A DNA stretch of 20,000 bases from an uncultured virus (IMG/VR IMGVR_UViG_3300033757_000130) (lineage: Duplodnaviria > Heunggongvirae > Uroviricota > Caudoviricetes): IMG/VR virus record IMGVR_UViG_3300033757_000130; one strand, given 5' to 3'. Positions 1,964-2,937 of the stretch are shown here, in pieces (position 1 is the first letter of the stretch; each line of letters begins with the position of its first letter). The translations under genes were made by a program, and so were the position numbers. Under the pieces are notes generated by a model that did no database searches, was not told the origin of the DNA, and saw only the letters and a program-made list of their open reading frames with translations.

Positions 1964-2062
1964 TTAAAAATCCTACTGTGGTAGTAGCACAATAGGATTT
2001 CAGCTATTTCTAGCCTTTAAATTCTTATTCCTATTATTAGAAGCTACTACCTTTCTAATAAT
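1964..2062 (-). promoter_or_regulatory. Structured 5' leader of tnpB1 (three hairpins, kissing loop, SD in stem)
   Basis: ATTATTAGAA-AG-GTAGTAG-C-TTCTAATAAT; GGCTA-GAAA-TAGCT; AAATCCTATTGTG-CTACTAC-CACAGTAGGATTT. Loop 1 is the reverse complement of loop 3. Confidence 0.75.
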
Positions 2063-2072
2063 CTCTTTAATA

Positions 2073-2080
2073 TATTTATA
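2073..2080 (-). promoter_or_regulatory. T4-type late promoter TATAAATA inside element 1
   Basis: Exact TATAAATA 10 nt upstream of the leader's first hairpin. Confidence 0.7.
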
Positions 2081-2108
2081 TAAGTAGCATTTCATTTTTT
2101 GTATTTTT

Positions 2109-2155
2109 GTGCCGATTCATATCAACTACTGAAGATAGTTGATTTTTCTCGGCAC
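2109..2155 (-). repeat. Left-end subterminal palindrome of element 1 (predicted TnpA-binding hairpin)
   Basis: Outer stem GTGCCGA...TCGGCAC encloses TCAACT..AGTTGA followed by TATGAA. Element 2's left end has the same layout. Confidence 0.7.
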
Positions 2156-2170
2156 GTTTCTATAAAATGA

Positions 2171-2198
2171 AAAACACCAAGAAAATTCTTGGTGTTTT
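2171..2198 (-). terminator. Intrinsic terminator after the 131-aa gene
   Basis: AAAACACCAAGAA-tt-TTCTTGGTGTTTT inverted repeat with T-tail, about 20 nt after the stop. Confidence 0.8.
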
Positions 2199-2219
2199 AA
2201 GTTTTTTAATCTGTGTAGA

Positions 2220-2615
2220 TTAGATATTTGGGAAGTTCTTCGTATATGGAGAATTTCCACCATTCCAAGCAGAAACGCCTTCATACTGATCGTCGCGAAT
2301 TGCGTCGATACCACTAGAAGCATAACCGCTTGCAACTTCTTTCTTGTAATCTTCTTCCAAATTAATATATGCAACAGCATATTCATCTGGGAAGATACGA
2401 CCAGAAGTGTCGGACCATGCTTCCTGTGGAAGTACAGTATTGAAGTACTTATTCCACTTACCAGAGACAAATCCTTCTTCAGCTTCTGTATAGATACCAT
2501 CTAGATAGGAATTAGCTTTCCAATCGCCAGAAACTGGACGGCATCCTACGTCTGCAGGATAGTCGTTACCAAGGTTATATAATCTACCAACAATTTTTAC
2601 ATCTTCAGCTGCCAT
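2220..2615 (-). CDS. Hypothetical late protein, 131 aa
   Basis: AGGAG RBS, TATAAATA promoter upstream, terminator downstream, plausible composition. No family recognised. Confidence 0.8.
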   Translation of the reverse strand: MAAEDVKIVGRLYNLGNDYPADVGCRPVSGDWKANSYLDGIYTEAEEGFVSGKWNKYFNTVLPQEAWSDTSGRIFPDEYAVAYINLEEDYKKEVASGYASSGIDAIRDDQYEGVSAWNGGNSPYTKNFPNI

Positions 2616-2684
2616 AATATTTACTCCTAAAATATAGCAAAGTTATGACAAATAAGTAAGTTTACTTTTTATTATTTGTTAATA

Positions 2685-2692
2685 TATTTATA
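2685..2692 (-). promoter_or_regulatory. T4-type late promoter TATAAATA
   Basis: Exact motif in the context CTTATATAAATATATT upstream of the 131-aa gene. Confidence 0.7.
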
Positions 2693-2820
2693 TAAGACAA
2701 CATAATACTTTTATACAAGAAATGCGAAAAGATAGATACCATGCTTTTAGGCTGGTATATGAATTTTCGCTATATTTTAAATATATTAAAAAGTTTTACA
2801 AAATTTCAAAATAAAACTTA

Positions 2821-2828
2821 TATAAATA
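2821..2828 (+). promoter_or_regulatory. T4-type late promoter TATAAATA inside element 2
   Basis: Exact motif 8 nt upstream of the leader's first hairpin. Confidence 0.7.
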
Positions 2829-2836
2829 TAATATAA

Positions 2837-2937
2837 ATTATTGAAAAGGTTAGAGCTTTCAATAATAGAATGCTTTTTAAAAGTCAGAAATGGCTTCATC
2901 CTATTGTTACTCTAACTAACAATAGGATTTTTATTTT
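2837..2937 (+). promoter_or_regulatory. Structured 5' leader of tnpB2 (three hairpins, kissing loop, SD in stem)
   Basis: ATTATTGAAA-AG-GTTAGAG-C-TTTCAATAAT; AAGTCA-GAAA-TGGCTT; ATCCTATTGTTA-CTCTAAC-TAACAATAGGAT. Loop 1 is the reverse complement of loop 3. Confidence 0.75.

What the first reader, a model, noticed from the sequence alone, without database searches (positions are those of the whole stretch)
1964..2937. Conserved kissing-loop RNA leader in front of both tnpB genes, with covariation
Seen: the two elements have divergent proteins but the same leader (1964-2062 minus; 2837-2937 plus). P1 is a 10-bp stem with a bulged A and a G-C pair closing a 7-nt loop. P2 is a short stem with a GAAA tetraloop. 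P3 is a 12-13-bp stem with a 7-nt loop. Loops 1 and 3 are perfectly complementary in each copy but differ between copies (GUAGUAG/CUACUAC versus GUUAGAG/CUCUAAC), which is compensatory change, and P1 and P2 also covary. The only SD-like sequence (AGGA) lies in the 3' strand of P3. An alternative pairing of AUAAUAG(GA) at the end of P1 with (UC)CUAUUGU of P3 is possible in both copies and would free the SD. Inference: this is a cis translational switch or protein-binding RNA controlling TnpB, distinct from the 3' omegaRNA and located where tnpA normally sits. It may overlap an existing Rfam motif such as the IS605-orfB motifs, which I cannot check.
Basis: partly seen in the sequence, partly recalled or inferred. 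Interest (0 to 1): 0.85.

Follow-up and report, generated by a model that had tools for sequence, protein, structure and literature searches.

The report
Kissing-loop leader RNA before phage tnpB
Both transposon nuclease genes (tnpB) in this phage window are preceded by the same small folded RNA leader, in which the tips of two hairpins always pair with each other. It is not in Rfam, was not found in the papers searched, and probably keeps production of the nuclease low.

Summary
Both leaders (1964-2066 minus; 2833-2937 plus) fold into P1, P2 and P3 as described.

Homologous leaders were found in 36 places, giving 30 distinct sequences. In 29 of the 30, the 7-nt loops L1 and L3 are perfect Watson-Crick complements, using 17 different heptamer pairs. 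The one exception sits before a 47-residue tnpB remnant.

Stems covary strongly: 19 of 28 pairs show double changes, and no shuffle of 500 reached the observed values. G·U outnumbers A·C by 34 to 8, which places the fold on the sense strand.

No Rfam family matches. The best hit, PyrR, scores 25.8 bits against a threshold of 54.

Both tnpB genes lie in real IS200/IS605-type, tnpA-less insertions. Empty-site forms of both occur in public runs. Each element reads: TTTTATA target, left-end hairpin, TATAAATA/TATAAT promoter, leader, tnpB, right-end hairpin.

In a quick tree, the leader marks one TnpB clade with members only 36-45% identical to each other.

P3 holds the only SD and is followed by at least five U. 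The best reading is therefore a cis-acting leader whose GC-rich kissing loop locks an SD-sequestering, terminator-like hairpin and throttles TnpB.

A two-state switch is energetically possible but has no covariation of its own. Function is untested.

The parts
681..2160 (-). Element A: tnpA-less IS200/IS605-type insertion. Ends are approximate, within about 4 nt.
   Evidence: Contigs of three public runs join 679-685 directly to 2161-2167, skipping 1481 nt. The TTTTATA target motif abuts the left end, and the conserved ...TTCAT right end is seen across relatives.
2109..2155 (-). Left-end subterminal structure of A: outer stem GTGCCGA/TCGGCAC enclosing the hairpin ATCAACTA-TCTTCAG-TAGTTGAT.
   Evidence: Conserved, with a covarying outer stem, upstream of nearly all leaders. 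The inner hairpin resembles the right-end hairpin.
2073..2080 (-). TATAAATA promoter-like motif of A.
   Evidence: The motif also sits upstream of four of the phage's own genes.
1964..2066 (-). Leader A: P1 2062-2033 (L1 GUAGUAG 2050-2044), P2 2014-2003 (GAAA loop), P3 1998-1970 (L3 CUACUAC 1987-1981), SD AGGA 1974-1971, U-run 1969-1965.
   Evidence: Fold. Covariance models R1 (91.4 bits) and R2 (86 bits). Covariation.
686..1963 (-). tnpB A (425 aa).
   Evidence: Pfam OrfB_IS605 1.4e-26, Cas12f1-like_TNB 3.7e-21, HTH_OrfB_IS605 1.1e-14.
681..710 (-). Right end of A: hairpin TCAACTG-TCTTTAG-CAGTTGA (710-690), then GTAGTTCAT.
2717..4146 (+). Element B: second tnpA-less insertion. Ends are approximate.
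   Evidence: One contig of run X15 joins 2716 to 4146, skipping 1429 nt, with TAT between. TTTTATA precedes the left end.
2724..2770 (+). Left-end subterminal structure of B: outer stem GCGAAAA/TTTTCGC enclosing an imperfect hairpin 2736-2758.
2805..2832 (+). Promoter-like site of B: TTCAAA-16-TATAAT (10 of 12), overlapping TATAAATA at 2821-2828.
2833..2937 (+). Leader B: P1 2837-2866 (L1 GUUAGAG 2849-2855), P2 2882-2895 (GAAA loop), P3 2898-2928 (L3 CUCUAAC 2910-2916), SD AGGA 2924-2927, U-run 2928-2932.
   Evidence: Fold. R1 109.5 bits and R2 103.9 bits. P3 is flagged terminator-like.
2938..4131 (+). tnpB B (397 aa).
   Evidence: Pfam OrfB_IS605 1.3e-28, Cas12f1-like_TNB 1.6e-20, HTH 1.7e-16.
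4051..4147 (+). 3' region and right end of B (presumed omegaRNA scaffold); hairpin CCACCCTTTAGAGTGG 4121-4136, then AGTTAGTTCAC.
   Evidence: Conserved across relatives. Only a sub-threshold Rfam match: Ref70, 27.8 bits against a threshold of 115.

Best explanation
The roughly 100 nt between an element-internal promoter and the tnpB start codon form the 5' leader of the tnpB mRNA.

The leader folds into three successive hairpins. The GC-rich 7-nt loop of the first hairpin (P1) pairs with the loop of the third (P3) in an intramolecular kissing complex.

P3 carries the only Shine-Dalgarno sequence in its 3' strand and is followed at once by a run of at least five U. It therefore hides the ribosome-binding site and also looks like an intrinsic terminator.

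In a leader that is otherwise 23% G+C, the kissing helix adds several kcal/mol that lock P3 shut and tie P1 to it. Little TnpB is then made from the element's own promoter or from read-through transcription. In short, it is a throttle on a selfish RNA-guided nuclease carried by a phage.

Shown: the structure, the strand, the loop-loop pairing, its position relative to promoter, SD and AUG, its restriction to one TnpB clade, and the mobility of the host elements.

Inferred: that it acts as RNA, that it represses, and whether the repression is translational, transcriptional or both.
For: Structure. 95.8% of 694 stem cells are paired, 19 of 28 stem pairs have changes on both sides, and 0 of 500 shuffles reach the observed values.

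Kissing helix. 29 of 30 distinct leaders have 7 of 7 Watson-Crick pairs, with 17 heptamer pairs. No third copy of any heptamer occurs in any locus, so the pairing is self-contained.

Loop composition and variability. Loops are 63% G+C against 23% for the rest of the leader. They are as variable as the unpaired linkers: 0.45-0.47 differences per site against 0.37-0.61.

Strand. 34 G·U against 8 A·C among 583 stem cells.

Position. A promoter-like TTCAAA-16-TATAAT / TATAAATA site ends 5 nt before P1. AGGA lies in the P3 3' strand 7-10 nt from the AUG. The five bottom pairs of P3 (UCCUA/UAGGA) are invariant in 25 of 25 rows.

U-run. At least five U follow P3 in all 9 + 11 leaders found through proteins, where the search imposed no such pattern. 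P3 of copy B is flagged terminator-like.

Association. Every leader with enough downstream DNA precedes tnpB or a remnant of it (22 intact or contig-cut tnpB, 1 internal deletion, 1 remnant, 1 contig end).

Loss of pairing. The only leader with decayed loop pairing (L233) precedes a 47-residue remnant.

Phylogeny. 27 of 27 leader-bearing TnpBs fall on one side of a branch (SH-aLRT 95) in a quick tree of 92.

Precedent. SD-sequestering hairpins limit T4 homing endonucleases (PMC2988022, passages read). 5'UTR structure represses IS200 tnpA (PMC4513863, abstract read).
Against: No transcript data. The only RNA-library evidence is assembled contigs, which cannot show starts, ends or strand.

A plain P3 hairpin would already hide the SD, so the need for P1, P2 and the kissing helix is not explained by a simple throttle.

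A nested alternative fold that frees GGA is within 0-5.4 kcal/mol of the optimum in 20 of 20 leaders, and is itself the optimum in 6. That fits a switch rather than a fixed lock.

P3 of copy A was not flagged terminator-like (1 of 2 copies flagged).

The top DNA strand has the same sequence as the RNA, so a single-stranded DNA role is not formally excluded.
Confidence: 0.55

Rival explanations
1. Two-state riboregulator. P1 is an in-cis, antisense-like partner of P3. Loop-loop kissing nucleates refolding from the OFF state (P1, P2 and P3 hairpins, with the SD and terminator formed) to an ON state. The ON state is one long hairpin in which L1 pairs with L3, the P1 tail AAUAG(G)A pairs with UCCUAUU, and the P3 3' strand with the SD is released. 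An unknown factor, such as a chaperone, TnpB, temperature or transcription speed, sets the balance.
For: The nested fold is within 0-5.4 kcal/mol of the minimum in 20 of 20 leaders and is the minimum in 6. It is again near-isoenergetic (-36.6 against -37.4) in the divergent GC-rich leader L521.

The unpaired tail AG after P1 is invariant or nearly so, and can pair with C75/U76 in 21 of 21 rows.

The layout resembles the anti-antiterminator, antiterminator, terminator logic of attenuators. Both leaders give sub-threshold PyrR-site matches.
Against: Among the 16 pairs specific to the nested fold, only one has any change on both sides, in a single cell. Pairs 11-93, 12-92 and 13-91 are unpaired in 9, 18 and 7 of 21 rows.

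The variable positions support P1 and P3 as separate hairpins.

The outer helix is not kept in the same register in the GC-rich subfamily (my reading).

Nearest-neighbour energies ignore the kissing energy, which would favour the hairpin state.
Confidence: 0.17
2. The leader is mainly a discrete small RNA, running from the promoter to the P3 terminator (about 100 nt). It would have a job of its own: a binding platform for TnpB or another protein, or a trans-acting RNA like the processed 5' tnpA RNA of IS200. tnpB would be expressed only by read-through.
For: The leader has its own promoter-like site, a terminator-like P3 and a conserved U-run.

Non-loop leader identity stays at 67-78% whatever the TnpB identity (36-100%).

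IS200's 5'UTR is processed into a structured regulatory RNA (abstracts of PMC5435999 and 10.1101/2024.06.26.600842, seen in the listing).
Against: No conserved single-stranded seed is evident. The variable loops are occupied by each other, and no third site matches them. Leader-to-3'-region duplex searches were uninformative. No expression data.
Confidence: 0.12
3. The hairpins act in single-stranded DNA of the top strand during IS200/IS605 'peel-and-paste' transposition or replication. Loop complementarity would be kept partly by template-switch correction within a quasi-palindrome rather than by RNA function.
For: The active strand of these elements has the same sequence as the mRNA. The leader lies inside the left end. 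The nested fold would hold L1 and L3 in register.
Against: The TnpA-type hairpins are elsewhere, at 2109-2155 and 2724-2770, and match the right-end hairpins.

The leader is tied to the SD, the AUG spacing, the U-run and a promoter.

G·U pairs are frequent (34 of 583).

Template switching would also have perfected the mismatched internal loops, which persist.

No tnpA was detected among the ORFs of the window that were scanned.
Confidence: 0.07

Closest known systems
RBS-sequestering hairpins of T-even phage homing-endonuclease genes (I-TevI, I-TevII, I-TevIII, segB, Aeh1 mobE); PMC2988022, passages read
   Same: A selfish DNA-cutting gene in a phage has its Shine-Dalgarno sequence about 8 nt from the AUG, buried in a stable hairpin, next to a TATAAATA-type late promoter.
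   Different: In T4, the late promoter lies so that late transcripts lack half of the hairpin and escape repression. Here the promoter motif lies upstream of P1, so the whole structure is transcribed. T4 hairpins have no partner hairpin or kissing loop. Here the gene is tnpB.
IS200 tnpA 5'UTR control (mRNA stem-loop, antisense art200, Hfq); PMC4513863, abstract read
   Same: Same transposon superfamily. A structured 5'UTR inside the left end represses translation of the element's protein.
   Different: No sequence or Rfam relationship. The gene controlled is tnpB, not tnpA. An antisense RNA was not tested here. IS200 has no reported loop-loop pairing (recalled).
Rep-leader pseudoknot of IncI-alpha/IncB plasmids
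   Same: The loop of an upstream hairpin pairs at a distance with the hairpin that holds the RBS of the regulated gene. The pairing sequences evolve as specificity determinants.
   Different: In those plasmids the pairing activates translation and depends on a leader peptide and an antisense RNA. No conserved upstream reading frame exists here (my reading), and here the partner is the loop, not the stem, of the RBS hairpin.
Intrinsic-terminator attenuators such as the PyrR binding site (RF00515)
   Same: Successive hairpins end in a stem followed by a U-run just before the gene, and an alternative pairing is possible.
   Different: Scores of 25.8 and 23.4 bits fall far below the threshold of 54. 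The loop that would correspond to the PyrR box is the variable L1.
Fully paired 7-nt loop-loop complexes (ColE1 RNA I/RNA II) and regulatory kissing loops of cobalamin and guanidine-II riboswitches (recalled)
   Same: Two hairpins pair through their 7-nt loops. In the riboswitches the kissing involves the hairpin that holds the RBS.
   Different: Those are either intermolecular or depend on a ligand, with conserved loop or pocket nucleotides. Here the loops vary freely, and no conserved ligand-pocket-like core is seen.

Membership tests
IS200/IS605-family tnpB-only (IS1341-like) insertion | TnpB protein with OrfB_IS605, zinc-ribbon TNB and N-terminal HTH domains | tested here: met
   both proteins, E 1e-14 to 1e-28.
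IS200/IS605-family tnpB-only (IS1341-like) insertion | Similar subterminal hairpins at the left and right ends | tested here: met
   Both ends carry a hairpin with a TTTAG-type loop preceded by GAAAA(A/G)T.
IS200/IS605-family tnpB-only (IS1341-like) insertion | Precise insertion 3' of a short conserved motif, with empty sites in relatives | tested here: met
   TTTTATA precedes the left end in both copies, and a TTTAT(A) motif precedes it in most relatives. Empty-site joints skip 1481 and 1429 nt.
IS200/IS605-family tnpB-only (IS1341-like) insertion | Y1 transposase TnpA in the element | tested here: not met
   No tnpA lies between the ends. This is the defining absence of the tnpB-only group, so mobilisation must occur in trans or by homing.
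IS200/IS605-family tnpB-only (IS1341-like) insertion | omegaRNA overlapping the 3' end of tnpB, with its guide beyond the right end | not tested
   Only conservation of the 3' region and a sub-threshold Ref70 match.
Rfam IS605-orfB-I / IS605-orfB-II or any other Rfam family | Covariance-model score at or above the family's gathering threshold | tested here: not met
   no match to those families up to E 10 on 1940-2960. The best match of any family is PyrR, 25.8 bits against 54.
T4-type RBS-sequestering hairpin with escape by a late promoter | SD inside a stable hairpin | tested here: met
T4-type RBS-sequestering hairpin with escape by a late promoter | A late promoter placed so that late transcripts lack the 5' half of the hairpin | tested here: not met
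   TATAAATA lies 5-8 nt upstream of P1 and about 70 nt upstream of P3.
IncI/IncB-type leader pseudoknot | A translated leader peptide that opens the RBS hairpin | tested here: not met
   Start codons in J1/2 occur in only some leaders, and the frames stop early in several, for example L013 and L139 (my reading).
IncI/IncB-type leader pseudoknot | An antisense RNA complementary to the upstream hairpin | not testable with these tools
   No strand-specific reads were available. The G·U against A·C asymmetry favours the sense fold.
Ligand-binding riboswitch with kissing loops (guanidine-II, cobalamin) | Conserved loop or pocket nucleotides | tested here: not met
   The loops are the most variable part of the leader (entropy 1.04-1.11 bits). 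The P2 loop is GNRA in one subfamily only.

The most novel reading that the evidence does not exclude
The leader is a self-contained bistable RNA device. An antisense-like hairpin is built into the same molecule as its target, and a fast-evolving 7-bp kissing 'address' nucleates refolding between a closed form (terminated, SD hidden) and an open form. Because each element carries its own address (17 seen), co-resident elements such as A and B here would be insulated from each other's leaders. The trigger could be the TnpB ribonucleoprotein or a phage factor, linking nuclease production to the stage of infection.
Probability: 0.15. Interest if true: 0.85.

Novelty: new variant of a known kind. 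Interest (0 to 1): 0.7.

Why it matters
TnpB is the ancestor of Cas12 and is widely used as a compact genome editor, yet control of its expression in native elements is barely described. The one recent study found by my searches concerns a protein repressor, Arc, acting at the promoter (10.64898/2026.09.24.754181, passages read).

This leader would be an RNA-level control specific to a deep TnpB clade that lives in phages. It is supported by unusually clean covariation, including a tertiary loop-loop helix.

It offers three things:
- a ready-made case for studying intramolecular kissing loops in gene control;
- a candidate new Rfam family;
- a set of at least 17 naturally orthogonal loop pairs that could serve as riboregulator parts.

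It also fits the picture of TnpB elements behaving like homing endonuclease genes in phage populations. Filled and empty sites of both elements coexist in public data.

Tried and rejected
1. Known Rfam family. No match reached threshold. The weak PyrR and Entero_OriR matches are rejected because L1, the would-be protein box, is variable.

2. A third site pairing with the loops (omegaRNA, guide, flank). No further exact copy of any heptamer occurs in any locus. The few extra matches in the 20-kb window lie kilobases away.

3. Split guide or tracr-like pairing of the leader with the 3' region. RNAduplex gave only meaningless long duplexes.

4. A fourth helix between J1/2 and the U-run. Energies ran from -4.5 to +0.6 kcal/mol and the registers were inconsistent.

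5. A conserved leader peptide. Not conserved (my reading).

6. The same architecture upstream of other tnpB clades. Of 85 upstream regions, only the 6 known leaders showed 7 complementary loop bases, plus one 6-nt case (L020). Controls gave 0 of 85 coding windows and 0 of 85 shuffles at 6 or more. The sister-clade upstream region (L057) is unstructured (z -0.5).

7. The 2101-2160 hairpin as a solo right-end remnant. Rejected: it is the left-end hairpin of element A.

8. BLAST of the leaders against the phage collection found nothing.

9. The promoter-word scan gave 112 stretches but only 4 leaders, at least 3 of them on contigs already sampled.

10. A third weak model hit at 18860-18946 is an ordinary terminator followed by TATAAATA.

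11. RNA-library contigs (X15, X17) cover parts of the region but cannot show transcription, ends or strand. They were not used as evidence.

12. Literature. Searches for 'TnpB'+'kissing', 'IS605-orfB' and TnpB/IS605/left end/phage/translation found no description of such a leader.
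Full report
**Setting.**
The window is AT-rich and phage-like. It carries SbcC- and SbcD-like genes (phrog_77 8.7e-80, phrog_100 1.7e-70). 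Its nearest held record is a virus record, and its relatives are in IMG/VR.

It carries two tnpB genes: A at 686-1963 on the minus strand (425 aa) and B at 2938-4131 on the plus strand (397 aa). Both have the OrfB_IS605, Cas12f1-like TNB and HTH_OrfB_IS605 domains. They are 45% identical.

**The observation.**
The two upstream regions align at 81% mean column identity. Each folds into three hairpins, at -28.3 and -25.4 kcal/mol (z -3.6 and -3.1).

- P1 with a bulged A, closed by a G-C pair around a 7-nt loop;
- P2 with a GAAA loop;
- P3 of 11-12 bp with a 7-nt loop;
- L1/L3 of GUAGUAG/CUACUAC in A and GUUAGAG/CUCUAAC in B;
- AGGA in the 3' strand of P3;
- a possible pairing of the P1 tail with the 5' strand of P3.

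**Relatives.**
Protein-guided searches of IMG/VR gave 7 and 80 loci. A covariance model built from six leaders (R1) was run over the window and 88 loci. It hit the two window copies and seven loci at 66-113 bits. Nothing else scored above 28 bits.

A pattern for the P3 stem then found more copies:
- 79 viral stretches, of which 16 hold a leader at 66 bits or more;

This gave alignment A6: 25 leaders, 21 distinct.

A second model (R2) was run over five whole virus records. It found a further, GC-richer copy in a 215-kb phage. A protein search with that copy's TnpB led to 11 leaders of a GC-rich subfamily, 9 of them distinct.

The pattern-found loci are biased towards the P3 lower stem and the U-run. 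The 20 protein-found leaders are not.

**Loop-loop pairing.**
In A6, 20 of 21 distinct leaders have 7 of 7 Watson-Crick pairs between L1 and L3, with 14 different heptamers. The GC-rich subfamily adds CUGGUCC/GGACCAG, CUCGCAC/GUGCGAG and CUGGUAC/GUACCAG, all perfect.

In total, 29 of 30 distinct leaders pair perfectly, with 17 heptamer pairs.

Non-cognate loops never reach 7 of 7 (0 of 406 combinations). Loops are 63% G+C against 23% for the rest of the leader. They vary as much as the unpaired linkers.

The exception is L233, on a contig of a Succinivibrionaceae MAG. In its best register by eye it reads GUUGUGG against UCAUUAC: 4 Watson-Crick pairs, 2 G·U and 1 mismatch. It precedes only the first 47 codons of tnpB.

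No heptamer recurs elsewhere in its locus, so the pairing is within the leader.

**Stems and strand.**
On the combined alignment A8 (25 distinct rows), 95.8% of stem cells pair. Nineteen of 28 pairs have changes on both sides, all slid-partner controls fall to 28-52% paired, and 0 of 500 shuffles reach the observed values.

With the kissing helix written as a pseudoknot on A6, 6 of its 7 pairs show double changes. This holds even though five rows are one column out of register.

G·U outnumbers A·C by 34 to 8. The fold is therefore selected on the sense strand, not on the antisense strand or as a duplex palindrome.

The five bottom pairs of P3 (UCCUA/UAGGA) never vary, which fits a double duty as SD and anti-SD.

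P2 is a GNRA hairpin in 19 of 21 AT-rich leaders. It carries UUAG, CUAC or CCAA loops in 10 of the 11 GC-rich leaders, the eleventh having an enlarged P2. The tetraloop type is thus not essential.

**What the leader sits in.**
Upstream of nearly every leader lies a conserved unit: a TTTAT(A) motif, then an outer stem that covaries, enclosing a hairpin with a TTTAG-type loop. That hairpin resembles the one at the 3' end of each element, which is followed by ...TTCAT.

Public runs hold the empty sites. Contigs of three runs join 679-685 to 2161-2167, skipping 1481 nt. One contig joins 2716 to 4146, skipping 1429 nt, with three other letters between.

Both genes therefore lie in bona fide, tnpA-less IS200/IS605-type insertions: A at about 681-2160 and B at about 2717-4146. 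The leader occupies the left end between the TnpA-type hairpin and tnpB.

Between the hairpin and P1 lies a promoter-like TTCAAA-16-TATAAT site (10 of 12), overlapping TATAAATA. That octamer occurs six times in the window. This is not more than chance (3.5 expected; 32 of 200 shuffles reach 6). But every copy lies upstream of a gene on its own strand. Transcription would then start 0-6 nt before P1.

**Distribution.**
All leaders with enough downstream DNA precede tnpB. Those TnpBs are as little as 36-39% identical to each other, while non-loop leader identity stays at 67-78%.

In a quick maximum-likelihood tree of 92 TnpBs (91 different), the 27 leader-bearing proteins fall on one side of a branch (SH-aLRT 95; the label needs one change). 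The careful search did not finish. ORFs under 330 aa and identical sequences were dropped.

The sister pair lacks the leader. No comparable two-hairpin design precedes the other tnpB loci.

**Mechanism.**
P3 holds the only SD and is followed by at least five U in all 20 protein-found leaders. Copy B's P3 passes a simple terminator scan; copy A's does not. I read P3 as a hairpin that hides the ribosome-binding site and may also terminate transcription. I read the GC-rich kissing helix as a clamp that stabilises it in an AU-rich leader.

A nested fold combines L1·L3, the P1 tail with the P3 5' strand, and the P1 5' strand with the P3 3' strand, and it frees GGA of the SD. It lies within 0-5.4 kcal/mol of the optimum in 20 of 20 leaders and is the optimum in 6. 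The same holds in the divergent L521.

Against it, its own helices show one double change in a single cell among 16 pairs. The variable upper-stem positions contradict it. The energies also omit the kissing term.

Covariation thus supports P1, P3 and L1·L3 together, that is, a kissing complex. It is silent on the extended form.

**Comparison with what is known.**
No Rfam family fits. My searches found no paper describing it.

The nearest parallels in function are:
- the SD-sequestering hairpins of T4 homing-endonuclease genes, where however the late promoter lies inside the structure (PMC2988022);
- the repressive 5'UTR of IS200 tnpA (PMC4513863, abstract).

Earlier unchecked notes of this scan describe similar kissing-loop leaders before phage tnpB and other nuclease genes in other genomes. 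They agree with my reading but are not independent evidence. I did not see the leader before any gene other than tnpB.

**Limits.**
- There are no transcript ends and no probing or expression data.
- The genome and metagenome scans were truncated, so counts are lower bounds.
- Several instances are the same contig held in two collections.
- E-values of my models are rough.

Noticed in passing
window 679-685/2161-2167 and 2716/4146: Public metagenome and metatranscriptome contigs hold precise empty-site forms of both tnpB elements. Filled and empty alleles therefore coexist in related phages, as expected if TnpB acts like a homing nuclease.
   Followed up: partly
window 4610-4760: The SbcC/Rad50-like gene is split by a frameshift inside its Walker A motif. 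One frame ends ...INAKNR*, and the next continues VVGKSTILDAL.... This is either a real disruption or an assembly error.
   Followed up: partly
window 2171-2198: Element A is inserted directly after a bidirectional terminator-like hairpin of the neighbouring gene. The TTTTATA target follows its U-run.
   Followed up: no
L134:1793-1900 (minus) and downstream: This is an internal-deletion derivative. An intact leader (same loops as L317) is fused to the last ~200 nt of tnpB and the right end, forming a miniature non-autonomous element.
   Followed up: partly
L317 and L134, upstream of P1: A (TATAA)n tandem expansion of about ten units lies between the promoter motif and P1. It would lengthen or shift the 5' end of the leader.
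   Followed up: no
L013:1501-2604: This tnpB aligns over 374 residues in one frame, but the open frame stops after 146 codons. This is either an in-frame stop (pseudogene) or a recoded stop codon.
   Followed up: no
L140, L151, L099, L154 (P3-like hairpins): Hairpins of the form AUCCUAUU...AAUAGGAUUUUU, holding the SD, precede unrelated phage genes in other contigs but lack a partner hairpin. The P3 lower stem seems to be a reusable module.
   Followed up: partly
window 2804-2843, run X15 loose ends: The same RNA-library sample holds another leader variant (L1 GGACUGG) that shares only the promoter stretch with copy B.
   Followed up: no
window 11617-11624, 12491-12498, 18856-18863, 2685-2692: TATAAATA sits 5-70 nt upstream of four of the phage's own genes on the same strand. 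This suggests a T4-late-type promoter word that the tnpB elements also carry.
   Followed up: partly
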